64,000 nt of DNA from Thraustochytrium aureum (lineage: Eukaryota). This document shows positions 9,928-46,016 of the stretch, one piece after another. The translations under genes were made by a program, and so were the position numbers. Where the stretch lies: assembly GCA_012862495.1 (NCBI GenBank), contig BLSG01000090.1:120846-184845 (forward strand), written 5' to 3'. Each line of letters begins with the position of its first letter. The first letter of the stretch is position 1. The notes under the pieces are model-generated. The model did no database searches. It was not told where the DNA came from and saw nothing but the letters and a program-made list of their open reading frames with translations.

Positions 9928-12900
9928 CTACTCCTCGATGAGGCGGCGCATTTCGGGTATTGTCTTGAACACTTCAGGCGGAAGCATCAGGAGGATGTAC
10001 TGGGCGTGACGGAGCTCGTCGTTGATCTGCGCAAAAATCCTCAAGATGGCGAAAAACACGAGCACAACGAGAGCAAAAAACAGCGCTGTCATGATCATGA
10101 CCAAGTCGGTGGCGTCGTTGGTGAGCGCTATTGTTGCGGCCACGTAAAGTTCGATGGACTCTTTTATCGCTCCTGCGAGAATCGTGGTGGACGCAAACTG
10201 CATCACACCGACGCGGTCTGCCGACCCTGCTTGCATGAGCGCCAGCTCTGCGCGGTCCAGCATGCGCTCTATCGCAATGCCCAAGCCAAACTCGAGGTCT
10301 TGGACCAATAGAGCCTTTGTGCTCCCAGGGGTGCGCTGCTTGGCGAGTGCCGAGATGCACTCGTCAAACACGCACGCATTGACGAATTCGAGCCCATACA
10401 GACTGGGGAACTTCTTCTCATCGATAAGGCCGACAGTTTCGAGCGTGTCATCACCATACAGGATAGCCGCGCTCATCGCTTTGATATTGTTTACGTCCAC
10501 CCAGGCAGCTGCTGTGCTGTTGTACAGGACTGGGTCTGTGTACCACCTCGACCACGGCGGAGCATCGTTTGGCCCTGGGGCTTCAATTGCGAAGTGCATT
10601 CGCAGGATCGTCGCCCAGCGACGGCCGACCTGGTGGATCGTTCCCACGTAGCCAACAGCCGAGTCTCTCACCCCAATTGCCACCAAAGTAACAACGAGAA
10701 AGTAGGCCGCCAGGAGGAGAAGCGGCGTGGTGAGCTTGACGAACGTTTGCAAACCGCGAAGGAACAGCTTGGTCTGCAAGACCCGGGATTTGGCAACTTC
10801 CGCTGCAGCCTTTTCCGCAACCTTGTCCGCTGTTTGCCCGCCTCGTGCTGGCGCCACCTTGGACGCGCTTCTCCTCGAAGCGCGCTTTGGTTCCCCTCGC
10901 CCTCTGGGTTTGGCACGCCGGCCAAACTTGCCTGCAATGAGGGCGGGGGAGGCGGCTCGTTTGGTCGTGGTGGGGTTTTGCCATCGAGCATCCTATTTGG
11001 CCGGGCGCGCCATGCTCTGTGCGTCTTCGAACTTTGCGTCCTCCAAAGCCTCAACCTGGAGCTGGCTGTCTCTGCGCAGCAGACTTGCTTTTTGGCGCTC
11101 AAGTCCAGGTTTGGCTGCTCCGCCAGTCTGAATCTCCTCCATGAGGTGCTTGACAAGCACGCCCTTCGCGAGGCTTCGCTTGCGCAACGAGGAAACGAGG
11201 TTTTTTTGGAAGGTGGTCGAGGGCGGCGGTCATCCCTGCCTTGGTCCTCCGTACGTCTCCGAGAAGCGGGATGAGCTGCACGAGAATGATGAAGGCCACG
11301 CTGGCCGCAGAAAGCCCCAGCATTGACTGATTGAAACTCACACTGAACTGCAGGACCTCTTTAGCTTGCTCGAAATACATCCCAGAAAACGTGATTGCCT
11401 TGTCAAGCAACTCGAATGGGCCGTTGTTGATGATGTATTGGCACGAGATATCGCACAGGGCAGGATCCTCGGCGAGGAAAGCCTCGCTGGCGGAAACCAG
11501 ACGTTGCACGGCCCTGTCAAAAGAGGTGCGGCGATACGCGTGTCCATCCATAGTCTCTTGGAGGCGGGTTCCGTTGTGCAGGGCGTCGATCACGGACGGC
11601 TTGGAACTTCCCGAAAACGCCAAAATTTCGTTGTGAATGCTGCGGAGACTGCTGGCGGCGATCTGGATGCTTTGTGGGACCAAGGCTCTGACGTCGTTCG
11701 ATTGCGTGTCGTTTGCAGACTTTTCGAGCAGGTCCAGATGAATCATGGTCCCCAGCGAAAGCTTTGCTATGAGAAAGGCGCGCTCGCTGCTATCGTTGAT
11801 GACAGACACCGTCTCCTCAAAAGTTTGGTATGTGTTGCGTTGAACGACAAGCGAGACAATCGACATGCAGGCGTAGGCTCCGGCGAGGATGTAGCACAAG
11901 CGCCGAAACCGAGTTAGTCTCGCCTCCTCGAATGCGATCCGGCCCTCCACCACCTTGTGCAGCGTTTGACCTTGCTTTTGTGTCGAATTCCCCGATGAGA
12001 GCGAGCCCTCGCCGTCCGAGCTAAACGACGCCACGCTTCGCTCCTCATCGTCGTTTTGTGCGTTCGAGATGCCCTGAGTGTTCAGCCCGTACCTGGGCCC
12101 CTTACCTTGCGGGTCTGAGCCATCTTGAAGGGCGAACGAACCTGGCTGCTGGTCGTCTCCGTGTTGCGCGGCTTCTTTCGGCTTTTTGCGAGCTTGAGCG
12201 TCAGGGGCGTTGTCAGCCAGCTTGCTTTCGCGGTCTTCTTCGTCGTCGCTTTGCATGGCCTCGAAGCTGAGCAGGATGATGCTTGGGAACCCATTGAAGC
12301 TCATCGGTTTTGCCGTGACGTGGTATGACTCGCCGTCGCCGCACGCCACGGTTTCTGTGTATTCCAGGTTTGGGTTGGGAACTGCTGTGGCCCCGGCGGG
12401 GTCGAGTTTGGCTTTCTCGTTGGCCTCAGTTTCAAGATCGTCCAGCTCCTTCATCATATCTTCGAACGGGGGAAGGACCGAGAGGCCGGGGATGAACTTT
12501 GCGACCAAGCCTTCCTCACCGGGTTTGTCGCCTACCGAGCGGAGCCCAAAGTCTCGCATCATGCCTTGCGAGAAAAAAAGGACCTGGCCCTTCCCGTCCA
12601 CGGCCACAAACTCCTTTTCGCCTGAGGCTTTCACGTACTTGCCGGAGAACTCGAGGTTTCCTACCGCGTCTTGTGCTGGTGTGATGAATAGGTCGACTGG
12701 GATGACGTAGCCACCTTTGTGGCGGGCCCACATGCGGCGCTTGATCGTCTCGGTGTTGTTTGCTCTGTTGATGTATTCGAGTAGAAGCTTCCCGTGCATG
12801 CGAGAAAAAGGCGGTGGGCACAAAAAGTCGACGTTGCGCCCCACGAGGGTTGCCTTCTTGAACCCAAACAGACGCTGCACGCTATCCGTGGCGTCGTCAA

Positions 12901-14642
12901 CCGTGCCAAGTGTCGTCTCGTTGCCACTAATCGTCAGAATGGCAACACTGTCGTTGCTAAAATCCGCAGCACCGCCCTTGCGACGCTTGAGTTCTGCGGC
13001 AGTGCGCCTCAGGCGCTTTGCTAGGAAGGGGTCGTTCATCACATCCTCGGCGTATACGGCGTACAGCAGGAGGGCTCTGTGCGAGCTCTGGCTAACGAGA
13101 ATGAGCTGGTCAAGGTGCGTTTTGGCCAGCGTGGTGTATTGGTAGATCTTGCTGGCCCCTTTGAAAATCTCATCGGCAGTGTGCTGCGAGGACGCGAGGA
13201 CGGCCCACATATCCTGCACACAGCGGATGCTCTCGAGGATGGACGCCTCGGCCTTTTGACGGTGGTGCGTAAACGTCACGTAGTTGAGAGCCCCACTCGC
13301 TCCACTTGTGCGCTCTTGCTGGCGCTTGAGGAACTGAAAGATGAAGAAGCTGTGGTCCACCTGGCGACCTGGCATCGTGCTCGCTCGGCGCATGTACTGG
13401 CCGGCCAGGAGCGAGTTGCCTCCGCAATGGTCAAACATGTTGGCCAGGTGGATGTTCAGCATCGGGTTCTTGTGGAAGTGCTTTTCGACGATTTTGCGGT
13501 ACTCTGCGTTCACCTTTGGCCACGTTGTCGTCGACGGTTTGAAGCGGTAGCGGAGCACAAGCTCGGCCTTGAACGGCGACATGCGCGGATGCGGCTCCTC
13601 GGAGGCAAGGCTCTGCTCGCGCGCCATGACGAGCAGAGTGAGAAAGGCCATAAACACTGGCCCGCCAAGCAAGAAGGAGATCATCGCACCCCGGTCCGTC
13701 GAATCTCCGACGAACTCGGCCACGGTGAGGCAGATCCCGCTCCACATGAAAAGCCCGTTCGTGCAGACAAACAGCCGGTTCATTTCTCTTCGATGGAACG
13801 GCATGTAGCGCAGGTACGCGCCGGTTATCACAGCCCCGCTTAGTGCCACCGAGGGAACCAGGAGCACGGAGTTGCCGTCGTCGACGACGGCGAAGACCAT
13901 ACTCAGCAAAGTCTGCACAAAGAGGGAAAGGCACTCGACTCGTCCATGTACTTGTGCGAGAGCGTGCGTGCTGTTCGGGTTGTCTGTCACGAAAACCAGG
14001 GCGACCAGCATGTTGAATAGCTCGAAAATCGCGAGCCCGATGCCAACGCCCACGGCAAGCGCGATCCGGCCGCCGGTCCCGCAAGGGAGGGATGCGTCAG
14101 CCATTGAGACGTCGCAACTAAACGCTCCAAAGAGGATCGACAAGATCGGCAGGTGGAGAACGGTGGTCATCAGGCGCATGGTGGTCTGGAGGATTGGGAG
14201 GACCCAGAGGTGCTTGACTGTCCCCGTCGTCCAGAACTGGTGCCCGATCCACGTCGACATGGCGGCGGTGGTCCCTACAAGGGCCAGGCTGATGAAGGTG
14301 GCAATCGTCGGGACGGCGCCCTCAATGTCGTTGATGAACTCGAAGGTGAGTATTTCGAGCTTGGGGCGGAGCCAGTCGGCAAAGTCGGCATTCCACTTGA
14401 ACGACAAGCTCTTGAAGGCGAAGCTGATGAGTTGCAGCGTGCTGACGACGGCAACGATGTAAGGCGCCGGTGACGGACATGTTGGCGTCCTTGGCCATCA
14501 GGTAGAGGAGCATGAATGTTGTGTTTTTCAGCTTTGCACGGATGGATTTTTTCTGGCTGTTGTTATCGACGCGTTCGCCCTCGCCCTCGCCCTCGCCCTC
14601 GTCCTGGAGGCCCAGCAAGCCAAGGACCTTTTCATGATGCAT
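9928..14642 (-). CDS. TmcB/TmcC-like multi-pass membrane protein with PAS domain; frameshifts near 14460, 11160 and 10850
   Basis: N-terminal multi-TM block (HGRVE motif), helical TPR-like region (LLYAVYAEDVMND), PAS (RLFGFKKATLVGRNVDFLCPPPFSRMH...ARHKGGYVIPV), then two TM-extracellular-TM units, ending LLMLPPEVFKTIPEMRRLIEE*. This is the architecture of Dictyostelium tiny-macrocyst proteins. Confidence 0.75.
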
Positions 14643-16235: not shown

Positions 16236-19197
16236 ATGTACAGCAGCGTCAAAAAAGGCATCTCGCGCGTCAGGGTCTCACTCGGGTCTGCGAGTAGCCT
16301 CGCCAAGTCCAAGAGCTCGGCTGGTGACCGATCTGCTGACGAGCTCGAAGGGGAACGCCTCGCGCTTTGCGAGGAACCGCACCAAAACGACGAGCGGCTC
16401 GAGCTACCCCCACCGCTTGTGAGCGCAAGGGACGCTGTCGACGAATGCACGTTTGGCGTGCCGCGCGTCACGGTCGTGGACAACACAAAGTCGCAATGTG
16501 ATTTCGCGGAGGCCGTGTTCGAAGTCCTATCAGACAGTGACCTTGGGCTTGACTTGCCCAACCAGGTGAAGCCGCAACCTATCCCAAGTGGAGCGAGCGA
16601 TTCTCCAAAGGGCGCTGGACCAGAGCACAGATGTTGCCCCGAAGCCTCTCCACAAACCGCACCGTGCACGGTCACACCATCGCCAACGGTGCTGGCGTTT
16701 GTTCAACAGCTGTCGAAGAAACTGGGGCATGGGTCGTTCAAGCAAAAGGCAAAGAAGACCAGTTCAACCCAATCGGACGAGCGCGGGCGCGTCGTTGCGG
16801 AGATGCTCTCCAGCGAAGAGTCTTTTCGTGGGTTTCTCAACGCGCTGCGGTCGGTATATGCGGTGCGCCTCAAGAAAGAGCTCTCCGCAGAGCAGCACAA
16901 GCTCTGCTTTAGCAGCATCGAGCAACTTGCAGCGTTCTCAGACACGTTCATTGGGGAGCTCGAAGCAACGATTTCCAGCTCGGAGTCTTTGGGCGACGCC
17001 TGTGTTGGCGACTTGTACTGCAGGTTCTCGCCCTTTTTCAAAATGTACAAGGCCTACTCGAGCACACACTGCCAGATCGCGGAGCTGATTGAGGAGCTCT
17101 GCAAGCGCAAGGCAGCTTTCCGTCGGACGTGCGACGAGTGCAAGGTAAGTTGTGCGGCGGCGCTCCTGTTGAAGAAAAAACGGAGAGTACCTCGTTGGCT
17201 GGCTGCTTGAAAACCGGCCGAATCACGGCGTCGCAGGACCCCGTAGCTGACAGCGAGCGGGCCTAAAGAGCGAGGCCGTATGCAAGGGGCAGACGCTCCA
17301 GAGCATCTTGATAATGCCTATCCAGCGCATCCCACGCCACCTCCTCCTCATCAGAGAGCTTCTGAAGCAAACCCCCGAAGGGCACCCTGACCTCGAGCGG
17401 CTCAAAGACGCCCGGAATGCGCTGGAGGAGATTGCGCAGAGTATGAACCAGGAGATTGGCGACACCGAAAACAGCCACAAGATCCTCGAGATCCAGCAGA
17501 GCATGACGCCGCGCCCCGAACTTTTCAAGACCGGGCGGGTCTTTATCCGGTCCGGAGCACTCAAGAAACGAGGCGACCACGGCGGGCTTCAGGAACTCGT
17601 GTTCTTTCTTTTCAGCGACTGCCTCGTCTATGCCAAGCCGACGTCGCTTGGAATGGGCGGGGCCAAGCTGCAGTTTCGCAGGATGATTCAGGTCGCCCGA
17701 GTAAACGTGGTCGCTGCGGCCCGCGCAAGACTAATGCAGGAGCTTGAAGAGGGCGACGACGTTCCGGAGGATGCGATCGAGTCTGTTGCCCAGCTCGAGA
17801 TTACACCCCAAGAGGGCTCTGCAAAGGGTTCGAGCAAGGCGGGTGACGATGGCCTCGTCCTCCACACCGGCCTCGAAACGCCGCGAAGTGGCCGGGATGA
17901 CATCGGGAAGCGGGCGTCTGTCAACTCGTTTTCTTCAAGCTCGGCTGCGAGCACGTCTGGGGCGAGCGAGACCGTCTCTGTGGCATCGCCGATTCCTTCG
18001 TCCTCCTCGAGCTTGCCAAGTGTTGGACGCAGTGGCGCTTCTGCGACTGGCGCTGGTACTGGTGCGGCAAGCGGGATCGCGTCATCGATGGTGTCGAGGC
18101 TCGCTAACAGTGCTGCGAAGCGAGAGGAGTTGCTCTTTCCCTTTCAGGTGCACGGGACCAAAACGATCTTGCTCTTCGCGTCCAGCGAAGCGGAGAGGCA
18201 ATCCTGGGTGACGGACTTGGAACTCAACTCGGACCCAAACATTGAGACGGACCTCGAGGCAATCGAAAGAGAGCGCGAGGAGTCTCGAAAGCGCATTTTG
18301 GCGGAAGCCCAAGAGAAAATGAGGACTGTCCGGGTTTCCGACCCGGTTCGCACGCGGGCGGCCACTGCGTGGTTTCGCCTCAACGAAGTCAGCGCGCGGC
18401 AGAAGCACAAAGGAGCTCCAGAGATCCAGCTCAAGTTCCAAGTGAGCAGGACCGGTTCCAATTTGTGCCAAACTGGGCCAGTCAAGCCGCTTTCGGTCTT
18501 GTCGCTGACGGTGGCCATCCTGTGCGGGAGGGGCATCACTGGCGAGCTAGCTTTGGGCGGGAAGGCGTTTCACGGCGTATACTGCGTCCTCACGTTTGGA
18601 AAGGTGGTGCACCGGACCAAGGCCTTTTCAATGCAGGACGAGGATCCCACGTGGATGGAGGAGTTTCGCAACCTCGAGTTCATTGCGGGGCTGTTCTCTT
18701 CGATGCAAATTAAGGTCAAGCAAGCGCTGCACGCCAAGCCGCGGAGTCGGGACCCTTGCATCGGCATCATAGATGTTCGCTTGCAAGACATTCTTGCCTA
18801 CACGGGAATCGAGATTGCCAATCCAGACTGCCAGATCTCTGACATTTTCTCCAAGGATCGCACCAACAATCGCGCTGTCCAGAAGAAGATAGCGCGGATG
18901 AAGCAGCCGAAAGGGCTACAAGTCTCCTCTGCGGCGTTCCTGGACGACTACAAGGTGTGCCAGATCCGTCCGGAAACGGAGACGCTGCCACTGTCTTGCA
19001 AGCCACTTCCATGTGTGCCGCAGCCGAGCCAGTTCGAGCCCGCGAAGGCTGATCGACGAAAAAGCTTTCAAATGTTGGCGTCGCGCCCTCTGCCCACCCC
19101 GCCAAGCGAGGTCAGCCAAAAGGCAAGCTCGCCGATGGGACGCGTCGCGCTTCCGTCACTGTGCTCTAGCCCCAACGCGCCAACTTCGGCGGTGTGA
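16236..19197 (+). CDS. Rho guanine-nucleotide exchange factor, DH - split PH - C2; one intron starting at 17145
   Basis: DH motifs VVAEMLSSEESF, FFKMYKAYS, LQSILIMPIQRIPRHLLLIRELLKQTPEGHPD. PH: FFLFSDCLVYAK...ASSEAERQSWV. C2: YCVLTFG...RTK...DPTWMEEF. ORFs 16236-17210 and 17308-19197 are joined by a GT-AG intron. Confidence 0.85.
17145..17268 (+). other. Spliceosomal intron of the RhoGEF gene (acceptor AG at 17253 or 17268)
   Basis: AAG|GTAAGT phase-0 donor, GCTGAC branch-like motif near 17246, in-frame stops inside; both acceptors restore the DH frame. Confidence 0.75.
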
Positions 19198-33495: not shown

Positions 33496-36455
33496 TCACT
33501 TTTCGAGCGCGGAGATTTGCTTCTTGGCTCGGCCGAGCTCGGTGCTGTGCACCTGGCCGGCGAAGCGCAGAGAGCAGAGCGACTCGCCGCGGTCGCTGAG
33601 CTCGGGCGAGAGGTTGACGATCATCATCGTCTTGCCTTCCCCCGCAAAGCAGGGCTGAAGCATGTGCGTCAGCTTCGAGTTGCGGTACGGCACGTGCGAG
33701 GTCTTCTTGTGGAGCGCGGAGAACACGTTGGAGAGCGAGCTGAGCGACTTGTTGATCGCCTGCGCCTCCTTGAGCCGGTCGCCCTCCGCGCCGGAGCGCG
33801 AGATCCGCTCACTGCCCGCCAGGTCGCACATCGAGAGGCTTCCCACGACCTGCGCTGAAAATTCACGGTGGACGCCTTTGATGAAGAGCGTGAAGACCGA
33901 GTGGCTGCGCGAGGAGTGCGCATTGAGGTCGGTGGCGGCCACTGACCGGTTGCGCTCTGCCAGGTCCAGCACGCGGTGAATGTCAGCTTTCGTTTCGATG
34001 GGGAGCCTCTTGGCGTTGGTGACAATGATCTCCTTTTTAGAGTCGCGGATCTCGAGCTTGGACCCGGCGCCGGACGCGCCCTGCAGCAGGTCGCGGATGG
34101 ACTCGTTGTAGATCTCCAGGTACTGGGCCTCGAGCGAATATTCCCAGCCCTTGGAGCGAAGCTCGGTTTGGTAGCTCATGATCTGGTCGATGGACCGCGG
34201 GATGATGCCGCGCTGGACGGGGCAGCTGTGGTCGCCTGTCATCGTGTGCGTCTTGCCGCTCCCCGTTTGCCCATAGCTGAACAGGCAGACATTGTATCCG
34301 TCGAGCGCGCTCTGCACAAAGCTGCTCACCTCGTCAAAGACGTCCTCCTGCTGTGTGGCCGGCCCGAAGACGCGGTCGAAGGCAAACTCGTGCTTCTTCA
34401 ACGTAGTGCCGCTCGTCTGCTCCTGCTCCGTCTCGACCGCGAGCGCAGACCCGTCAACGGTGCACGAAATGTGCTCCGGCAGCGCAGTGGTCATCTTGAT
34501 GTCGCCCTCTGCGTCCTTGCCTCGGGCAGAGAAGATCGGCCGCACACGGGCCACGACGCGCACCTTGCCCTTTAGCGCCTGCACTTCGTTGTGCAGTCGC
34601 CGCTTGGCTTTGTCGGATTCGAACAGCAGCGACTCTGTGTCCTTGAGCTGCGCGCGGAGCTTGGCCACCTCATCGTGCAGGTGGTCCAGGTCGGTGACCT
34701 GGCGCTTGAGCTTCTCGGCCTCCTTTGAGACCTCGCAGAGCCGCTCAAGCTGCGCGTCGTAGCTGATCCCCCCCTGGCCGTACGTGGACCTGAGCGCCTG
34801 AACCTCGCTCTCGAGGTCGCTGTTGCGCTGCTCGAGCGTGTTCGCCCGCTCGTTGGCGGTGGCGAGCTCGGCACAGAGTTTCTCCTTCTCGGCAGAGTGG
34901 GCTTTGCGCTCTTGCTCGAGCTCGGAGGTCATCCTGCCCACTTGGACCGTGAGGGCGGCGTTCTCTCGGGCGGCTCGCTCAATGTTCTGCTCCATGCCTG
35001 CCGAGTTGGCTCGGAGGTGGCAAGCTCGTCCTGCGCCTTGGTCATGCTTTCGGACTGCTCGCGCAGTGTTGCGGTGAGGGCTGCGTTGGCTTCGGTGGCC
35101 TCCTTGAGCGACCCGGAGAGCTCGGTCTTTTGGACCTCGAGTGTGCCTTTTGCGTCAGTCAGTTCGTTCACGCGAACCTCGAGCTTGGCCTTTTCCTCAC
35201 TCAGCGAGGCGATTCGCTCCTGGGAAAAGGTCTGGTTTTGCTGGAACGTCTCGAGGGTCTTGTCCAGGTGGAGGTCCTTCTGCTGCGCCTGCGCTTGCAA
35301 GGCAACGACTTGGCCCTGCATCGCCGCCTGCGCCTCGCGCAAGCGCTGCGCCTCGCTTTCTGCAGCTTGCGCGCGAGCCTCCGAGGTTCGTAGGTCTTCG
35401 CCCATGGCGGCGAGCTTGGCGGACACCTCGTCCAATTTGGCCTGCCCCTGTGCGAGTGCCGAAGCGGCGGCCTCGCGCTCGACACTCCATTTGGCGCACT
35501 CGGCGTCAAAAAGAGTCTGCTGCTCATCAAGCGCGGCCTTTTGCGCCTGGGCCGCCCCGTCTGCAGTGGCTGCGGCCTCGTCCAGCTTGAGTTGCATCCT
35601 GGCGAGCTCATCCTCAAGCTTGGCCGCCTTGGCCTGCTCCTCGGCGACCCTGGCCTCCGCCGCTGCCAGCTGGCCGCGCACCTCGTTCATGGCGGCGTCG
35701 AGGCCTTCGCGCACAGCCACGAGCTCGGCATACTTGGTCTGCTGCGCCTTTGCTTCTGCCTGGAGCTCGGCCAGCTTGCCTTTGGTGGTCGACTCGAGCT
35801 TGCGCGCGTCTGCGAGGTCTTGCTCTGCGGCTGCGAGCTTGCGACGGTGGTCCTTGGCAGTGCCGTCCAGCTGTTCGACCTTGTACTTGGCGGCTTCGAG
35901 GGCCGACCGCGCCGCGCGCTCAAAGTCCTTGCACGCGTCAATAAACTTGTCGCGCGCGTTGAAGTGCTCCTTGATCCCGGTGGCCAGCCGCTTCGTTTCG
36001 TTGTCGACGTACTTTTTGGGGTACCCGAAAAGCTTTTGGTCGGGCTTGGTGCGCTTGAGGAGCTCTGCTTTCTGTGATTCGCGCAACTCCAGGGCGCCGA
36101 AAATAGTGCAGGCGATCTCTTCGATGGGCACTGTGGGGATGCTTACGGTCAGGAGTTCCTCCTCGGCCTCGGCCTCGGCCTCGCCGGCAGCCGCATCGGC
36201 GCGCCCGCCGCGTCCCGAGCCCCGGCTACGGCCGCTCTTTCGCGCAGAGCTGCTCACGGACGCGCCTTTGAACGAGCTGTTCTTGGCCCAGCCCGGCGGC
36301 TGCAGCCCACTCGGTGCGCGATTGGCGTTATTGCTCTCGCCGAGCACCTTGCGCGCATTCTTGCTGCCCGACTCTGCTGCGTGCTCGTCGCTTTTGCGCT
36401 TGCGCGTCGCGCTTGGCGACACGAGGTTTTCGCGCTCGTCCTCCACAGCGTCCAT
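33496..36455 (-). CDS. Kinesin-14 (C-terminal motor; KAR3/NCD/KIFC1-like) with long coiled-coil stalk; frameshift near 35013
   Basis: Neck RRLHNEVQALKGKVRVVARVRP; FAFDRVF; P-loop YGQTGSGKT; NAHSSRSH; DLAGSER; HVPYRNSKLT; coiled coil in ORF 34929-36518. Confidence 0.93.
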
Positions 36456-36710
36456 TTCACCACCGACCGCCGCCGACCCAGCCCGACCCAGCCAGCCAAC
36501 CAGCCAGCACGCAAGCACGCCCGTGCAGCAGGGGCGCCGAGACGCTCAAATGGGTGCAGCTCCGCGCTCAGCCGCGCTTCCTTCGAATGGCGATCGACCT
36601 CGCCGCGTCCGAGCAACTTTCGGGGCTCTGCTCTTCCCAAATGGGGCTAAAGCAATTGCGGCGGTTTTTCTGTCTTCAGGCCAACTGTGAACTGGAGATG
36701 AATTGGACGA

Positions 36711-36736: not shown

Positions 36737-37700
36737 ATCACCCCGAGCGACCTCGATGACCTGCGCGGGACGCCGGGACGGCGTGGGCCCGGCCCGCGTC
36801 CAGTGGCGAGAGCCCGCCGCCGACCGCCCCCCTCCTCGCTTTGCCTTCCTTCCAATCGAGTGAGTGCTTCACGCCGCAGCAGGGTGGTGAATGCGCCGCG
36901 AGCGCGAGGACCAAGCGAGCGGGCAGCACGCCCTCGACTGTGCTCGGCACGCTGTTGCTCGAGGCCCGGCCTCCGCGGTGCCAGGCGAAACGTCCGCGGT
37001 TGGCCAGCGCGCGGCAAAACTGCGAGCTGCGGAGCAGGACGCGGGCGAGTCAGTCGCTCTGTCTGCGCCTGCTCGACCAACGTCGCTGCCTGCATCGCGC
37101 GGAAGACCGAGGAAGGGGGATCCCTCGCCGCTGCGCGTCGCTGCGCGCCGCTGCGCGCCAGGAGCCCGATCGAGCGCGGTGCGAGCGGGGTGGGTGGGTC
37201 GTGCGAAAACCGCGACGCCCCGGCGCTCTTGGAGGTCCGTAGTCGGGTATGGAGTGTCAGCAGGNNNNNNNNNNNNNNNNNNNNNNNNNNNNNNNNNNNN
37301 NNNNNNNNNNNNNNNNNNNNNNNNNNNNNNNNNNNNNNNNNNNNNNNNNNNNNNNNNNNNNNNNNNNNNNNNNNNNNNNNNNNNNNNNNNNNNNNNNNNN
37401 NNNNNNNNNNNNNNNNNNNNNNNNNNNNNNNNNNNNNNNNNNNNNNNNNNNNNNNNNNNNNNNNNNNNNNNNNNNNNNNNNGGATGAGTTGTCATGAGAT
37501 TTTTTGGCTTGCAGCACGTCGCGTTCTTCGTCCGTGCGTGAGTCGCCGGGCGAGCGAACTGCGTGGCCGGCCGGTCAGTCCCCAGAAGCGCCAGCGGTAG
37601 CACGAGCGGCACTCGTAGGTGCCCTTCTGTATTTGGCCTGTCCTCGGCGTGAAGCGGAGTAGCTTGCTGTCTCGAAATCTCTCCCACGAAGCCCGCCCCG

Positions 37701-38708
37701 ATGGAGCAGGTCGAGGCCGCAAAGGATGTCGGGCATCAAGCAGAGTCGGGGCCTGCGCCCCTGCCCGAGGAGCTCGCGTTTATTCCGATCGAGCCCGGGG
37801 TCGACGACGGCATGTCGGACGAGACGCTGCGGCAAGCAACCGAACACTTTCGTGTCAGGCCCACGGACGTAATCTGCGCAACGTTCCCCAAGACGGGCAC
37901 GACCGTGGTAACCTGGCTGTGCCATCAGTTGCGCACCGGCGGCCACGTCGACTTTGAAGACATGTATCAGGTCGCGCCGTGGATCCTGCTTTCCTGGGAC
38001 CTCGGCATGGACCCCAATGTGGACGGGTCGCAGTTCTTTCCACGTGTCTTCAAGTCGCACCTGCGGCTCGGTTCAGTCTGGCGCGGATGCAAGTACGTCG
38101 TGACTGTGCGGGACCCAGTCAAAACGAGCGAGTCTTTCTACAACTTCCTGGCAGCGAAGGGGATCGAGAGTGTCATTAAACAGACGCCAACCGAGTTTGT
38201 GCGCGACACGTCTTTTGTCCTCGGCAATGGTGGTTCTCGCGCCAGCATCTTTGACTTTTACAACGAGTACTACATCTGCCGCGAGTGCCCGAGCGTCCTT
38301 GTCCTCGTGTACGAGGACCTTGTGAAGGACATGCGAGGGGCTGCGCTGCTGTTGGCCGATTTTATGGGCGTGCCCGTTTCGGACGAGCGCATCGACAAGG
38401 CCGTCGCCATGAGCAGCAAGGAATTTATGGCACAGCACGAACCCAAGCTCGACGAGTCCTGGGTGTTTGAGCGCGCCAAGCGGCTTGGCCGGTCGCCCGA
38501 CGCTGCTGCTATGTGGACGCCTGCCAAGCGGGTTGTTCTCGGTGGCCACAAGGCTGTTTTGGACGAGGAGGGGCGAGCCTTGCTGTCGAGCAAATGGGCG
38601 GAAGCGGCGCCCGGCGGCTTTGCAACGTACGCCGAGTTCGCTGGGTTTTTCCGGGCCAAGAACGCAAAGCGATTGGCTGAGCTGAGCGGGCCGGCCACTT
38701 CTAGCTAA
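37701..38708 (+). CDS. Cytosolic-type PAPS-dependent sulfotransferase (Sulfotransfer_1 family)
   Basis: 5'-PSB loop DVICATFPKTGTT, catalytic His in RVFKSHL, 3'-PB RDPVKTSESFY, LVYEDL. Confidence 0.9.
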   Translation: MEQVEAAKDVGHQAESGPAPLPEELAFIPIEPGVDDGMSDETLRQATEHFRVRPTDVICATFPKTGTTVVTWLCHQLRTGGHVDFEDMYQVAPWILLSWDLGMDPNVDGSQFFPRVFKSHLRLGSVWRGCKYVVTVRDPVKTSESFYNFLAAKGIESVIKQTPTEFVRDTSFVLGNGGSRASIFDFYNEYYICRECPSVLVLVYEDLVKDMRGAALLLADFMGVPVSDERIDKAVAMSSKEFMAQHEPKLDESWVFERAKRLGRSPDAAAMWTPAKRVVLGGHKAVLDEEGRALLSSKWAEAAPGGFATYAEFAGFFRAKNAKRLAELSGPATSS

Positions 38709-40540: not shown

Positions 40541-42811
40541 TCATGTCTGCGCCATCGAGCAGCTCGTGTTGTTGCGCTGGAACACCTTGACACCTCTGGT
40601 ATCCGCCTCCGGGGCAGCTGTCGGCTGGGAACGATTGGGAGCCGCAACTTCGGACGCCGCCAAACGCGCATACGCGGCAAAGATGCGCGACCCAGCGATG
40701 AGAGCGGCAGTAACACAGGTGCAAAACGAGATGCTACAGGCCACGAAGATGGTCTTCTGAGACACGGTCAGGCCATCCAGCATGGAGATAGCAACCGTGA
40801 AGAGCGTTGCGATGGCTGCGTTGTAGTTGCTGAAGAAGAGAAACTTGGCCTCGCTGAAGATGAGCCCCGAGTAGTTGCGCGTCTGATAAGCCAAGACGCA
40901 CGAGACCGCCATCGCTAGAAAGGCAACCATGAGAGTGACGATGAGCAGGTTTGTGTCAAGCGGGCAGGTGCGCTCCGTAACCCCGACGGACGTGGAGCCC
41001 TTGGCTTGCGTGTCCACGGGCTCAAAGCCCATGATGCCCGCCCAGAGCCCAAACCAGCACGAGCTGAACAGGGTGAGGAAGAGGCCCGAGAAACGCAAAA
41101 GAAAGGTGCGCTTCTTCGAGGTGCGGCGATCCATCTTGTACTTGCACCTCACGATCTGAATGATGATGAATTGCTTGATGAGCAGCGAGCCCGCAAAGTA
41201 AAAAAAGCCGTACAACAGCCCGGCGACGCGCAGCGCGCAAAACGCCGCCGTGGGCTCGCCGATCGCAAAGGTCGTCGAGTGGTTGAGCAGGACAGCGCCG
41301 AGCAAAAAGAGCAGCATGGTCTGGAGACGCGCCGCCTTGACAGCCGGGGATTTGCGGTAGAAGAGGATGCCGATCGCCAAAGAGCACAGGAAAAAGTCTG
41401 TGGCGATCGAGAGGTAGAGGATCCAGTTCGAAATCACGCTGTCGCTCGGGACGAACGGGCAGCTGAGCGTCTCAACAACAACCACGGGTATCTTGGTGAC
41501 ATGCCAGCGGGACTTGTACACGGAGGGCAGCATTTCCCCGCAAAGTCCCCGGTCTGCTCGATGCTGACAAGTGTCGAATTCTCGAACTCGGATTGGTTGA
41601 ATACACGCAAAACAAGCCTGGCACCGTCCTTGTCGCAAGGACAGCCAACGAAGGTCGGCTTGAGTTGCTCCCGGTGCCAAACAATACCGGCAAACTGAGA
41701 CTCGACCGGAGAGAGCCATCGCGACCACGTCATTTGGTTTGCGTTGGCCCAGTCGCACACAACGCGGCCAAAGGTCTTGTTCGGGTTTGTGTACAGGTCA
41801 GCGAGCATTTCTTCTTGCTGCGCAGTTGCCGTGTACCGCATTGCAGACAGGAAAACGGCTACGTCCGGGAAGCGCGCGGCCATTTTGGTCGCGAAGGCCT
41901 TGTGGAGGACCTCTGAAGGGTAGTCGCAGGCGACGCCGCCCGTTTCTAATTCGTCCCAGCACGCTGGTGTGTATGGGGGAAGGATGACACGCGTGAGGTT
42001 GTAGATTTGCATGAGCGCGTGAGGTTGCCAGAAGTAGAACAAAATCGGCCGGCGCTCCGCAATCGCCGATTCAACCTCCGCAATCAAGCCGGCCTCCGTG
42101 CCCGCTACCTCAACAGTGAGGTTGAGGCCCAGGTTTCGTATCACCTGGCCGTCGATTTGCACCCATTCAGGAGAACCCGCGACAAACCGCCCGGCGTACG
42201 TGGGGATGGTCTGCGTCGCCGGCGAGGCGCATTCTCCAGAAGTTGCAAGCCCGCCGAAACTTGCCGGCGTGCCGCCATCGGCTTCTGCTGCTGCGCAGGG
42301 GAGCAAGTCTTTGCCCTCGCGATTTGTCTTGATGCCCTCCGTGCAGCACGGAAGCTCGCTGTGTGGACTTGTGAAAGCGGCTGCGCGGGCTGGGTTGAGC
42401 AGGGTGCGCCAGTACTCTAGCGACGGGTCGATGTCCTGCTGCACGAACGAGGGCATGTACCACCCGATTGTCCCTGTCGCGCCAAGCCAGCCAGCGTCCA
42501 CCACGTCTGACGTTTGGAGGACGTGTTTGTAGTATTCGGCCTTGTTGCCGGTGGGCCACATCTCGAGCATGGCGTCGATCTCGCCAAGTGCCATCCGTTT
42601 ATACGCATCATCTGAGGTAGCATTTGTGAGGTCATCGGGCGCAGCCGACCTTTCCAGCTCGCCAAAAGTATTGCCGTGCGGGACCATCTCGACGGGGTAC
42701 CCGAGAAACTCCTCAATGAAGATTGCTGCGAGGTAGACGTTGATGAACGACCCCGTCCACGAGCTGACCCCCAGCTTGACGGCGCAGGGAAACGTTCCGT
42801 CGGGTCCAGCA
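40541..42811 (-). CDS. Class C-like GPCR (7tm_3) with an N-terminal ProX/OpuAC glycine-betaine-binding domain; 5' end in N-gap, frameshift near 41505
   Basis: OpuAC motifs SWTGSFINVYLAAIFIEEFLGYPVE, GEIDAMLEMW, GTIGWYMP, IRNLGL, RRPILFYFWQPH, CDYP. Cys-rich linker. Seven hydrophobic helices with RKSPAVKAA, TM3 Cys, and LAYQTRN...FSEAKFLFFSNYN. Confidence 0.85.
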
Positions 42812-44092
42812 NNNNNNNNNNNNNNNNNNNNNNNNNNNNNNNNNNNNNNNNNNNNNNNNNNNNNNNNNNNNNNNNNNNNNNNNNNNNNNNNNNNNNNNNN
42901 NNNNNNNNNNNNNNNNNNNNNNNNNNNNNNNNNNNNNNNNNNNNNNNNNNNNNNNNNNNNNNNNNNNNNNNNNNNNNNNNNNNNNNNNNNNNNNNNNNNN
43001 NNNNNNNNNNNNNNNNNNNNNNNNNNNNNNNNNNNNNNNNNNNNNNNNNNNNNNNNNNNNNNNNNNNNNNNNNNNNNNNNNNNNNNNNNNNNNNNNNNNN
43101 NNNNNNNNNNNNNNNNNNNNNNNNNNNNNNNNNNNNNNNNNNNNNNNNNNNNNNNNNNNNNNNNNNNNNNNNNNNNNNCGGGCTCACTCACTCACACGGG
43201 AGGCAGGCCGGCTCCTATGGCCTGCCAGGCGGGCGTTGGCAACCACCGCCCACCTGCCCGCGCTGCCCCGCGCTGCCCCGCGCTGCCCTGCCCGTCGTCC
43301 GGGGACTACGTCGGCGCGTGTTGCTGGTTGTGCATCCTCAAGGTCTCCTTGCACTGTGGTTGTTTGAGGGCCCGGAAGAACAAAAGAATAACTCCGAACC
43401 CAACCTATTCACCTCTCGATAAAATGCAAGTTCGATTACCCGACAAGGTGACGCGTCGTCAAATAGTTTCCCCGAGAGGGGTGGCTCCGCGCTCGGCGAA
43501 TATACACTAATACGCCGGCTCGTGTCCACGTGCCGATCTTTTGGGGGGTAGTGTAGGCGGCACGCTTTGTCACGACTTCACATCCGCACTATCGAAGGAG
43601 TTTCGGCAAAGCAGTTGGGCAGGCTGCCGCGACGTAGGCAGACCTGACGGGATTGCACCGGCCACCGGGGGCTGCGGCGTTCGCTGCGTTGCTGGAGCTC
43701 CTGGCGGTGTGCGCTCGCTGAGCTGCGTGTCTGCACGCTGTGTTCCCGGCCCGGCCCGTGGCGCGAAGATCGATCTTGTTGCCCTCCCATGACAACTCAT
43801 GACTCAGATCTTTGGTGAACTGCCGCGCTGTTCTGCTCGTTGGGGCGTGCGTGCGTGCTGGCGACTCGGCTGGCAATCGTTTGGGCTCGGGAATCCTCGC
43901 GGCAGGCTGGCCGAGCAGCAGGCGGGCGATCTTGCTGGCCTCTTGATGCGTTGGAAGGGAAGTACCTACCGGTTGAGCAGAGTTGCAGAGTAAAGTACCT
44001 CATCAACACACTCGACTCACTACAGCTGCATGTGGACACAAAGCGAGCCAAAAGGCAGCCAAGAGGCCCCAGGCAAGAAGCCTTTCGATCAC

Positions 44093-44121
44093 CCATCCAT
44101 CCACCCATCCATCCATCCATC
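44093..44121. repeat. (CCAT/CCAC)n microsatellite
   Basis: ccatccatccacccatccatccatccatc. Confidence 0.8.
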
Positions 44122-44436
44122 CGTCCACGCACGGCGATCGCTGAGCCCGAGCCGCTCGGCTCGCGACTGCAGGCAGCAGCAGGTCTAGCGGCTGCCGAGC
44201 CGAAGGATACCGGTGCAGAGCACGCGCACAGGGCCAAGATCGGTTTCGAAACCTTTTCGGCGTCAGCGCCACGCGCGGCCGAGCGCGTGGCCCTGGGCCA
44301 GCTTGCTGCGGCGAAACACCTGGGACTGGACGCGCGAGAGGCCACCGTGCGCTGCGGACGCAACCCCGCTGAGCTGGAGCCGCCGCCGCCCTGGAGGGGC
44401 TTCGGAGACGCCGTTCTCAGGAGCGGGCCAGTGATG

Positions 44437-46016
44437 ATGGGCTCGCTGATCTCCCAGGCTGGGGCCAGGCAGAGCACCCTGAGCAAGCTCTGGGCCCTGG
44501 CGGTGGGGCGCCCTGTAAACCCCTTTGGGCTCCACTTTGAAGACAACCCCCGCGCGCCGGGGCCAGGGCAAATTGTCGAGTGGATCGTCATGTTTCTGGA
44601 CCCCTCGGACTGCTGCGCCCTGATGCAGGCCTGCATGGGCGCAGCGGCAAGCACCACGTCGCCAAGGCCTGCACGAGCGCGTTGAAGAGCGCCGCGTTCT
44701 TGTCCGCTGGGTTCCGCTCTGGCCGCGGCCAGGACGTCGAGCGGCTCCTCAGCATCCCCTACTTGCCCGAGCCCGAGGTTCGCGGCGCTCTGCTGGGCGC
44801 GCTGCACCAGCTCGACGCAAGCTACGGAGCCGAGTACCTCGACGAAGGCGGGCAGCGCATCGAGCAAGACACGAACGCGCTGCGCGACGCCCTGTTCGCC
44901 ATTCTGAGCTGTGACCTCGGCGAACGACACCCCGTGGTCCAGACGCTCGCGCGCGAGAGGGTGCAAGCCCGTGGGGTGGTGGCGCGCCACGCAGGCGTAA
45001 GCGAGCACTGTTTCGACGCGGTGTGGGCGCTCTGCCGCGTCAAGGTGGGGCGGCAGGACCTCATCGTTTCCGGGTCGGGCGACAACACCACCATTCTGTT
45101 CTGGGACCAAGCCACGGGTCGCCAGGTGAAAACACTCAATGCGCACGACGATGAGATGACCAGTCTGGCCGCCGACCTCGTCGACGGCTCAAAGTTCTGG
45201 AGCGGCTCTGAGGACGGCCTGGTCAAGCTCTGGAGTGCGGCGTCGGGGTCCTGCGAAGCCACCTTTGGGCCGTTCTCCGACGACTACGGGTACGTGCGCG
45301 CGCTGTGCTGCGTGATCGCGTCCAACGCAACCTCGGTCGCGCTCGCCGGGCTGTACAACGGCGAGATCCACGCGATTAATGCCGATTTCGGTGAGGCGAC
45401 AAAGGGCGGCCCGAGGCTGCTGTGCCGGCTACCAAGCTTTGTGACGAGCATCACCCTGCTTGAGTTTGGCCGCGCCAATGTGGCTGTCGGCTGCGGCGAC
45501 AAAAAGGTGCGGGTGATTCACAGCTTGACCGGCGAGGTGTTTCACACGTTGCGCGGCCACCTTGATGGCTGCTTCGTCATGCGGTCCGTCCACCCGCCGC
45601 GCGAGGTGCTCGAGCTGCTGGGTCTTGGCCTTGGGGCGCCGCACAACAAAATGGTTTCCTGCTCCTGGGACAAGACGCTCCGTGTCTGGAACCTGGACGA
45701 CGGCTCGTGCGCCCGCACCTTGCGCGGCCACACTGCGCGCGTGATTGCCTGCGTCGTGCTCAATGTTAATAATGTTGGCGACCCAGTCAAGCAGGTCATC
45801 GCCTCGTGCTCAATCGATGGCACCGTGCGGTTTTGGGATGCAAACTCGGGAGCCTGCATCACCATGTACACCGTTGGGGCCAAGCTGTTTGAGGTCATCT
45901 TGCTTCCGGATGGCGGCCTCGCGGTCGGGACGGAGAACGGCCGCGTCGTCGTGCTTGACTACCGCTCGACCGTGATGTGCAGTGCATTGTCTGCCGAGCA
46001 GTCGCTCGTTTTGTGA
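44437..46016 (+). CDS. WD40-repeat protein with a probable N-terminal F-box-like motif; frameshift near 44650
   Basis: WD repeats SGSGDNTTILFWD, AHDDE...SGSEDGLVKLWS, SCSWDKTLRVWN, GHTARV...SCSIDGTVRFWD. Upstream frame IVEWIVMFLDPSDCCALMQAC resembles an F-box. Start MGSLIS is tentative. Confidence 0.7.

What the first reader, a model, noticed from the sequence alone, without database searches (positions are those of the whole stretch)
40541..42811. Class C GPCR with a bacterial-type ProX/OpuAC betaine-binding ectodomain: candidate osmolyte receptor
Seen: a full type II periplasmic-binding domain with ProX/OpuAC motifs and several Trp residues at cage-like positions (SSW, LEMW, SPEW, YFWQP). 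It is followed by a Cys-rich linker (CPCDKDG...GKCCPPC...SCP) and seven TM helices with class C hallmarks (RKSPAVKAA after TM1, TM3 Cys with ECL2 Cys, TM3 Lys, LAYQTRN...FSEAK...SNYN as in GABA-B). One frameshift near 41505 separates the parts, and the 7TM ORF has no convincing start or signal peptide of its own. Known: classical class C GPCRs use a type I Venus flytrap, and ProX/OpuAC/ChoX bind quaternary amines by cation-pi boxes in ABC importers. Inference: a transporter binding protein co-opted as a receptor ectodomain to sense glycine betaine, choline, carnitine or DMSP, plausibly for zoospore chemotaxis. Similar fusions may exist in databases, but I know of no characterised example.
Basis: partly seen in the sequence, partly recalled or inferred. 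Interest (0 to 1): 0.88.

Follow-up and report, generated by a model that had tools for sequence, protein, structure and literature searches.

The report
Betaine-binder-headed class C receptor
A marine protist gene joins a bacterial-type betaine/choline-binding clamshell to a glutamate-family seven-helix receptor body; the apparent break in it is likely an assembly error, the design is already listed in the literature, and its intact binding cage suggests it likely senses choline, betaine or DMSP, which nobody we found has tested.

Summary
The fusion is real. Pfam OpuAC and 7tm_3 both pass their cut-offs. The window lacks one base at 41545/41546, not near 41505. Contigs of 3 of the 3 runs that cover the site (2 studies) carry the extra base, two neighbouring genes show the same one-base loss, and intact 782-814 aa homologues align straight across. 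The ectodomain models as a TmoX/DmpX/ProX-type binding protein (Z 27.7/26.8/24.7) with all five cage aromatics kept. The Glu of TmoX/DmpX is Ile here. Its nearest bacterial relatives lie beside ProV (30 of 41 loci) and choline dehydrogenases (17 of 41). A homologue's membrane part models as class C (Z 26.9). OpuAC+7tm_3 is in print (PMC3251606, PMC3971589), and this scan noted a similar fusion in another genome (e1-9546400). So this is a new member of a known but functionally untested kind. Added here: a ligand shortlist, a predicted beta-stalk, and a tree in which receptor-fused OpuAC domains form one group shuffled among 7TM, cyclase, PDE and kinase outputs. Ligand, G-protein coupling and zoospore role remain untested.

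The parts
42812..43178 (-). Run of N that hides the inferred 5' end of the coding sequence (start codon, signal peptide, first Cys motif; about 55 codons)
   Evidence: N run; homologues P0005-P0007 carry a signal-peptide-like start and an SC...CC...C motif before the first visible residue. Inferred.
41701..42789 (-). OpuAC/ProX-type (type II periplasmic-binding) ectodomain, residues about 8-370 of the visible protein
   Evidence: Pfam PF04069; model mean pLDDT 87.1; Foldseek 4xz6 E 2.1e-22; VIA Z 27.7, rmsd 3.0, 284 aligned
42211..42363 (-). Cys-rich insertion in the binding domain (C155, C156, C172, C194), shared with the close labyrinthulomycete-type homologues
   Evidence: alignment; Cys list; a gap opposite TmoX
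42028..42759 (-). Aromatic cage codons: W18 (42757-42759), W85 (42556-42558), W216 (42163-42165), Y259 (42034-42036), W261 (42028-42030); also N89 and I115 at the polar-anchor positions
   Evidence: align to TmoX W55/W102/W177/F220/W222 and DmpX W35/W84/W152/Y200/W202 (pocket residues from PMC8918994 and PMC10030565); conservation
41444..41673 (-). Stalk of about 75 residues between binding domain and TM1, four conserved Cys, predicted all-beta
   Evidence: alignments; six strands at 421-488 in the model of homologue P0007. Predicted.
41545..41546 (.). Site of the one-base loss that shifts the frame in this assembly
   Evidence: extra base in contigs of runs X1, X2, X3; one X1 contig spans 41223-42647; one added base opens a continuous frame
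40690..41440 (-). Class C (7tm_3) seven-helix domain with C3.29 (41237-41239), K3.50 (41174-41176), ECL2 Cys (40964-40966), E6.35 (40850-40852)
   Evidence: Pfam PF00003; phmmer to mGlu4 and GABA-B2, E 4.5e-6; profile alignment to GABA-B2; homologue model Z 26.9 to mGlu1 4or2
40541..40689 (-). Short, poorly conserved cytoplasmic tail and stop codon
   Evidence: translation; alignment
43197..43293 (-). Possible upstream (5') exon; weak
   Evidence: one low-depth X1 contig lies here and leaves the window sequence next to a GT dinucleotide on the minus strand (tables 7-8); not shown to belong to this gene

Best explanation
This is one gene for a surface receptor of a likely labyrinthulomycete protist, in which a ProX/TmoX/DmpX-type binding domain sits on a predicted beta-stalk above a class C seven-helix domain and likely closes around a small methylated onium compound (choline or glycine betaine first, DMSP next) to trigger a predicted G-protein signal. 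Shown: both domains, their order, the continuous frame in other data sets, the five cage aromatics, the class C Cys pair and ionic-lock residues. Inferred: the ligand's trimethylammonium or dimethylsulfonium head binds in the Trp/Tyr cage; the two lobes close; the stalk, packing on the second extracellular loop as linkers of class C receptors do, passes the movement to the helices; the K3.50-E6.35 lock opens and a heterotrimeric G protein is engaged. My odds on the ligand: choline/betaine-type trimethylammonium about 0.5, DMSP about 0.15, TMAO about 0.05, something else about 0.3. The frameshift is likely an assembly error, not a dead allele.
For: One gene: extra base in 3 of 3 runs whose contigs cover 41545 (X1, X2, X3; 2 studies; 7 runs laid in all). 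The same kind of one-base loss splits the neighbouring kinesin (510+506 codons) and WD40 gene (273+459). Read through with X, the protein gives one HSP of 718-737 columns to 7 of 9 homologues, 47% to P0007; the other two match the ectodomain only. Selection: 24 of 34 listed differences outside the tail are synonymous against 33% expected for transitions (binomial p 9e-6), none in the cage (40 of 44 differences were listed). Fold. Cage: W18 77, W85 88, Y259 71, W261 72 (W/Y 86), position 216 W/Y/F 87, each of 90 rows. Ligand context: relatives of the bacterial hit P0019 lie within 6 kb of ProV in 30 of 41 loci and of a choline dehydrogenase in 17 of 41 (9 GbsB-like, 8 BetA-like; one example of each passes its NCBIfam cut-off). 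TmoX itself binds choline at 3.8 uM (table in PMC10087775). Class C marks: C3.29, ECL2 Cys, K3.50 exactly 21 residues after C3.29, E6.35 (definitions in PMC11621567). Lineage: nearest named hit of the window's SepSecS is Hondaea (65%), other named hits 50-55%. Stramenopiles have most GPCR-pathway components (PMC3971589).
Against: No binding or signalling data. The Glu that anchors TMAO in TmoX and helps bind DMSP in DmpX is Ile here, and the position that is His in 42 of 90 relatives (as E. coli ProX H69) is Asn in this protein, so the polar end of the ligand is unresolved. The cage alone does not fix specificity in this family. The bacterial neighbourhood count has no genome-wide control, many loci are related Anaerolineae, 2 of the 17 are distant Rhodobacteraceae loci, one BetA match is only 35%, and P0019 is not resolved as sister to the eukaryotic group. 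R3.53 is Ile and the TM7 Pro-Lys motif reads Ser-Arg. No genome is held, so G proteins of this organism were not seen; PMC3971589 cites work suggesting canonical GPCR activation may be limited to amorpheans. All runs laid are contigs of other strains (about 98.5% alike), 'RNA' is the tool's guess, and none proves the base in the window's own strain. The full-length model is of a homologue (pTM 0.70), not of this protein.
Confidence: 0.62

Rival explanations
1. It is a working class C-type receptor, but its ligand is not a methylated osmolyte (for example an amino acid, an amine or another small cation); the cage is inherited and has been retuned.
For: Polar anchors differ from every solved relative: Glu to Ile, His to Asn. 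Only 25% structural identity to TmoX. PF04069 members include a histidine binder (HisX, legend in PMC10030565). A conserved Asp (D220, 71 of 90) has no assigned role.
Against: All five aromatics are kept and conserved; top structural matches are all onium binders; bacterial relatives sit with choline/betaine genes.
Confidence: 0.2
2. It binds an onium ligand but does not itself activate a G protein: it would act as the ligand-binding partner of another subunit, or signal through arrestin/GRK or another route.
For: R3.53 absent and TM7 motif degenerate; only 22% identity to the Capsaspora OpuAC receptor's 7TM; doubts on canonical activation outside amorpheans are cited in PMC3971589; GABA-B splits binding and coupling between subunits (established knowledge, recalled).
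Against: K3.50, E6.35, C3.29 and the ECL2 Cys are invariant in the window protein and 5 of 5 close homologues; fold matches mGlu/GABA-B at Z 24-27.
Confidence: 0.12
3. The frameshift is real in the source strain, which would carry a dead allele of a gene that is intact in other strains.
For: The bridging contigs differ from the window by about 1.5%, so they are other strains or alleles; X8, the one near-identical contig, does not cover the site.
Against: Two adjacent genes, one a kinesin, have the same one-base loss; no stop codons and a synonymous excess across both domains.
Confidence: 0.05
4. Two separate genes: a soluble binding protein followed by a stand-alone 7TM protein.
For: Two ORFs in the window; the second has an ATG at 41719.
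Against: One contig bridges the junction in frame; 7 homologues are single chains colinear across it; the stretch after that ATG is the wrong frame of the ectodomain.
Confidence: 0.01

Closest known systems
Non-animal Glutamate-family (7tm_3) receptors with an OpuAC ectodomain (six Allomyces macrogynus proteins, PMC3251606; architecture conserved in distant eukaryotes, PMC3971589)
   Same: Same two Pfam domains in the same order; blastoclad, amoebozoan and Capsaspora examples have ectodomains in the same tree group.
   Different: This subfamily adds a Cys-rich insertion and a stalk of about 75 residues; in the amoebozoan P0056 7tm_3 begins 25 residues after OpuAC. Its ectodomain does not group with those of the other 7TM fusions. 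Neither paper's passages that I read give a ligand or function.
Hondaea fermentalgiana GBG33756.1 ('metabotropic glutamate receptor-like protein B') and MMETSP/metagenome homologues P0004-P0007, P0012
   Same: Colinear over the whole visible protein, 38-47% identity.
   Different: Automatic annotations only; the Hondaea record is 1303 aa with two ectodomains and a partial first membrane part, likely two tandem genes merged.
Bacterial cluster F binding proteins TmoX (4XZ6, TMAO/choline), DmpX (7YLE, DMSP), ProX (1R9L), ChoX (2REG), OpuAC (3L6H)
   Same: Fold (Z 24-28) and four-Trp cage; Tyr at the DmpX Y200 position.
   Different: Part of a receptor, no transporter genes nearby; lacks the TmoX E131/DmpX E113 Glu; extra disulfide-type insertions and six N-glycosylation sequons.
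Animal class C GPCRs (GABA-B, mGlu, CaSR)
   Same: 7TM fold, C3.29-ECL2 Cys pair, K3.50-E6.35 lock.
   Different: Type II binding fold instead of the ANF Venus flytrap; no nine-Cys domain hit; short tail; R3.53 missing; dimer state unknown.

Membership tests
Class C / Glutamate-family GPCR (7tm_3) | PF00003 above the curated cut-off over the full domain | tested here: met
   75 bits vs 33.5, profile 9-248 of 251
Class C / Glutamate-family GPCR (7tm_3) | Seven-helix class C fold | tested here: met
   Model of homologue P0007 has seven helices and an ECL2 hairpin; Z 26.9, rmsd 2.5, 250 aligned to mGlu1. The window's own 7TM was not folded; it is 38% identical to P0007's.
Class C / Glutamate-family GPCR (7tm_3) | C3.29-ECL2 Cys pair and K3.50-D/E6.35 ionic lock | tested here: met
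   Residues present at aligned positions (definitions PMC11621567); bonds themselves not shown
Class C / Glutamate-family GPCR (7tm_3) | R3.53 and TM7 Pro-Lys motif (TM7 motif recalled; seen as 'VPKL', 'MPKV') | tested here: not met
   Ile at 3.53; Ser-Arg in TM7. These are common but not family-defining; they lower confidence in canonical coupling.
Class C / Glutamate-family GPCR (7tm_3) | Type I Venus flytrap (ANF_receptor) ectodomain of classical animal members | tested here: not met
   Only OpuAC hits the ectodomain; fold is type II. So not a classical mGlu/GABA-B member; non-animal members lack it too (PMC3251606).
Class C / Glutamate-family GPCR (7tm_3) | Activates a heterotrimeric G protein | not testable with these tools
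   needs an assay; no genome held
Class C / Glutamate-family GPCR (7tm_3) | Obligate dimer | tested here: inconclusive
   see Tried and rejected
OpuAC + 7tm_3 receptors (PMC3251606, PMC3971589) | PF04069 N-terminal to PF00003 in one chain | tested here: met
ProX/TmoX/DmpX-type onium-binding proteins | Type II binding-protein fold | tested here: met
ProX/TmoX/DmpX-type onium-binding proteins | Cage of three or four aromatic residues | tested here: met
   W18, W85, W216, W261 plus Y259 by sequence-profile alignment; side-chain geometry in the model was not inspected
TmoX (TMAO-specific) or DmpX (DMSP-specific) proper | Glu at TmoX 131 / DmpX 113 | tested here: not met
   Ile115; Ile in 52 of 90 relatives, Glu in 4
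ProX/TmoX/DmpX-type onium-binding proteins | Measured binding of a methylated onium ligand | not testable with these tools
   needs ITC or thermal shift

The most novel reading that the evidence does not exclude
One bacterial choline/betaine-binding protein lineage entered eukaryotes once, early, and became a general plug-in sensor for methylated osmolytes that was swapped repeatedly onto class C 7TMs, cyclases, phosphodiesterases, kinases, a RasGAP and a channel. This labyrinthulomycete receptor, with its own disulfide-rich beta-stalk, would be the way these decomposers smell choline, betaine or DMSP leaking from algae and detritus, and the first non-animal class C receptor tied to such a ligand. 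Basis: 42 domains from long fused proteins form one side of a branch at 98/98; the 7TM label needs 8 changes within it and a single 7TM clade is rejected.
Probability: 0.3. Interest if true: 0.72.

Novelty: new member of a known kind. Interest (0 to 1): 0.48.

Why it matters
The architecture has been listed since 2012, but my searches found no ligand or function for any member. Thraustochytrid zoospores are chemotactic (PMC12221091), and which receptors let marine protists detect methylated osmolytes is, as far as I know (recalled; one search found no paper), open. This family offers a direct test: a soluble, well-modelled ectodomain with a mapped cage, a short ligand list, and intact homologues in a cultured genus (Hondaea). 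It would also show how a type II clamshell can drive a class C helix bundle without a Venus flytrap. It would not surprise a GPCR-evolution specialist that the fusion exists.

Tried and rejected
Homodimer prediction of the ectodomain (residues 1-378, two copies): no verdict, score 0.00, no support and no evidence against. No RNA holder is on record for the stretch; X1, X3 and X4 are only guessed to be RNA, so expression and zoospore specificity were not addressed; contig depth was not used. Runs X4, X5, X7, X8 do not cover the frameshift site. No whole genome is held, so paralogues and G proteins were not counted. The ESM Atlas gave no answer, so the stalk was not compared with other clusters; the stalk was not folded alone, and in the full-length fold searches it was barely tested, so I make no claim that its fold is new. 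NCBIfam gave no hit at 1e-8 for the window ectodomain. The taxon id printed in the MMETSP record of P0005 resolves to an unrelated fungus and was not used. Rejected: a short intron near 41505 (contigs show a one-base insertion and no joint there); two separate genes; TMAO as first-choice ligand (Glu missing). Literature searches with no relevant hit: class C GPCR + glycine betaine + substrate-binding, labyrinthulomycete + G protein-coupled + chemotaxis, Aurantiochytrium + zoospores + G-protein coupled receptor, OpuAC + eukaryot + receptor + adenylate cyclase, DMSP + chemotaxis + protist + GPCR, thraustochytrid + GPCR + zoospore (1 oomycete review, listing only). The library lacks most subscription journals. 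Figures and supplements of PMC3971589 (fig. 3, S3), which list the lineages with OpuAC+7tm_3, were not seen and may already include a stramenopile. Earlier scan notes by sequence and place: nothing.

Full report
Observation. The locus lies on the minus strand between two runs of N. The frame 41437-42810 matches Pfam OpuAC (E 9.2e-22) and the frame 40544-41797 matches 7tm_3 (E 9.5e-21, profile 9-248 of 251); both pass the curated cut-offs. The start of the gene falls in the N run 42812-43178; homologues have about 55 more residues there, with a signal-peptide-like start.

The frameshift. Contigs of public runs were laid on the locus (7 runs in all). The three that cover position 41545 (X1, X2, X3; two studies) all carry one extra base there, and one X1 contig spans 41223-42647 with that single gap. 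One added base makes a continuous open frame. The break is thus at 41545/41546, not near 41505, and the GKCCPPC stretch is wrong-frame read-through: after 41547 the upstream frame scores 20-28 against 5 homologues, the downstream frame 49-83. Read through with X, the visible protein is 756 residues and gives one HSP of 718-737 columns to 7 of 9 homologues tested; P0013 and P0014 match the ectodomain only. X1 shows the same one-base loss in two neighbours, where the base joins 510+506 codons of a kinesin and 273+459 codons of a WD40 gene; 4 other indels tested opened no long frame. The simplest reading is that this assembly drops single bases. The contigs are about 98.5% identical to the window, so they are other strains or alleles, and a dead allele in the source strain is not strictly excluded. 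Of the 40 differences listed (of 44), 34 lie outside the tail and 24 of these are synonymous, against 33% expected for transitions (p 9e-6): the gene is under purifying selection among these strains.

Organism. The window's SepSecS is 65% identical to that of Hondaea fermentalgiana and 50-55% to the other named hits. The named close homologues of the receptor family are from Hondaea and Mucochytrium. A labyrinthulomycete is likely; this is inference from best hits, not a tree.

Ectodomain. The model from a 90-row alignment has mean pLDDT 87.1 and pTM 0.83. Best structural matches are TmoX (Z 27.7, rmsd 3.0, 284 aligned), DmpX (26.8), ProX and OpuAC (24.7) and ChoX (24.2); amino-acid binders follow at about 11. 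TmoX and DmpX are tied. Pocket residues were taken from passages of PMC8918994 (TmoX W55, W102, F106, E131, W177, F220, W222), PMC10030565 (DmpX W35, W84, W152, W202, Y200, E113, T64, A153) and PMC10087775 (ProX W65, H69, W140, W188; TmoX binds choline). By alignment the window protein has W18, W85, W216, W261 at the four Trp positions and Y259 at TmoX F220/DmpX Y200. These are conserved in 71-88 of 90 rows (position 216: W 58, W/Y/F 87). The Glu shared by TmoX and DmpX is Ile. The W85+4 position, His in 42 of 90 rows as in ProX H69, is Asn here. So the cage for a methylated onium head is intact, while the polar anchor matches no solved protein.

Bacterial context. The best single-domain hits of full length in the search of cluster representatives (864 proteins at E up to 0.001, best 150 listed) are about 40% identical binding proteins. 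One of them, P0019, fetched 41 GTDB loci, mostly Chloroflexota and Actinomycetota. Within 6 kb, 30 of 41 have a ProV-type ATPase, 17 of 41 a choline dehydrogenase (9 GbsB-like, 8 BetA-like) and 18 of 41 some choline/betaine catabolic gene (family names from one example each). Limits: no genome-wide background was run, many loci are related, 16 are under 10 kb, two positives are distant Rhodobacteraceae loci, and one BetA match is only 35%. Two unrelated dehydrogenase types recurring beside the transporter still point to choline or betaine for the bacterial group.

Membrane part and stalk. Homologue P0007 (53% identity in the ectodomain; 38% in the membrane part) was folded whole from 48 rows: pLDDT 89.6, pTM 0.70; binding domain, six beta strands at 421-488, seven helices and a hairpin in ECL2. 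The helices match mGlu1 at Z 26.9 (rmsd 2.5, 250 aligned) and GABA-B at 26.4. In the window protein C3.29, the ECL2 Cys, K3.50 and E6.35 are in place and invariant in 5 of 5 close homologues (definitions from passages of PMC11621567). R3.53 is Ile and the TM7 Pro-Lys reads Ser-Arg. The stalk with its four Cys is shared by P0003-P0007 and P0012 and absent from P0013 and the amoebozoan P0056. It was not searched alone, so its fold is unassigned.

Mechanism. Most likely the clamshell closes on a choline/betaine-type ligand (about 0.5; DMSP 0.15; TMAO 0.05; other 0.3), the stalk transmits this to ECL2 and the helix bundle, the ionic lock opens and a G protein is engaged. Domains, residues and the single frame are shown; ligand, transmission, coupling and any role in zoospore chemotaxis are inferred. 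Thraustochytrid zoospores are chemotactic (introduction of PMC12221091, passages), and stramenopiles have most pathway components, though the same paper cites doubts about canonical activation outside amorpheans (PMC3971589, passages).

What is known. PMC3251606 (passages and section 29) reports OpuAC domains on six Allomyces Glutamate-family receptors. PMC3971589 (passages and section 9) lists OpuAC among 7tm_3 configurations conserved in distant eukaryotes; its figure and supplements were not seen. Here, of 47 longer hits scanned (of the 150 listed), 11 carry 7tm_3, 10 a nucleotide cyclase, 3 a phosphodiesterase, and others a kinase, RasGAP or channel domain. Named 7TM fusions come from Pyxidicula, Amoeba, Arcella, Blastocladiella, Catenaria and Capsaspora; named non-7TM fusions from Pelomyxa, Willaertia and Chromosphaera. 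This scan had noted a related OpuAC + 7TM + kinase receptor in another genome (e1-9546400; not checked here). No paper giving a ligand or function was found, within a library that lacks most subscription journals.

Evolution. In a 93-row tree of the binding domain (LG+G4, 289 columns), 42 domains from long fused proteins, the window's among them, form one side of a branch at 98/98, nested among short binding proteins whose backbone is unresolved. The group was drawn after seeing the quick tree; three long proteins (P0018, P0030, P0038) fall outside it, one member (P0016) is a short fragment, only some rows have a named taxon, rows were chosen from hits to the query, and the mixture model was not used. 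The 7TM label needs 8 changes in the group, and a single clade of the 18 7TM-fused domains against 29 others is rejected (p-AU 9e-68). A 7TM profile found no hidden class C domain in 21 other proteins tested, while it found both positive controls. So the module looks ancient in eukaryotes and repeatedly shuffled, not a recent co-option in this lineage. This is suggestive, not settled.

Verdict. A real, likely intact, selected gene; a new member of a catalogued but untested receptor kind. Interest 0.48: the fusion itself is known, but the mapped cage and short ligand list make an open question about osmolyte sensing in protists directly testable.

Noticed in passing
window 33496-36545 (-): A kinesin with a long coiled coil before a C-terminal motor is split by a one-base loss at 35015; X1 carries the base and the joined frame is 1016 codons.
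   Followed up: partly
window 43819-46016 (+): A WD40 gene is split by a one-base loss at 44638, seen in X1 and X4; the joined frame is 732 codons. Other frameshift findings from this assembly should be treated as suspect.
   Followed up: partly
window 16236-19197 (+): A RhoGEF domain is divided between two ORFs (profile 1-135 and 136-180) followed by PH domains: an intron or another assembly slip near 17210-17314.
   Followed up: no
window 11099-14260 (-): A 1053-codon ORF with TmcB-type TPR repeats and a weak PAS match.
   Followed up: no
window 37653-38708 (+): A Sulfotransfer_1 gene lies 1.8 kb downstream of the receptor; no link was tested.
   Followed up: no
P0003 (Hondaea GBG33756.1): The 1303-aa record holds one ectodomain with about two helices followed by a complete second receptor: likely two tandem paralogues merged by annotation.
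   Followed up: partly
P0013 and P0014: Same Cys-rich ectodomain subfamily, but P0013 has a different, stalk-less 7tm_3 and P0014 (Mucochytrium cluster) a membrane part with no Pfam hit: domain swapping within the group.
   Followed up: partly
P0109, P0116, P0132, P0144, P0152, P0022, P0079: Proteins of 900-1300 aa with this binding domain and five to eight hydrophobic segments that match neither 7tm_3 nor my 7TM profile: possibly a further undescribed receptor or channel type.
   Followed up: no
P0133: This binding domain (below the Pfam threshold used) fused to Ion_trans_2/Lig_chan: a possible onium-gated channel.
   Followed up: no
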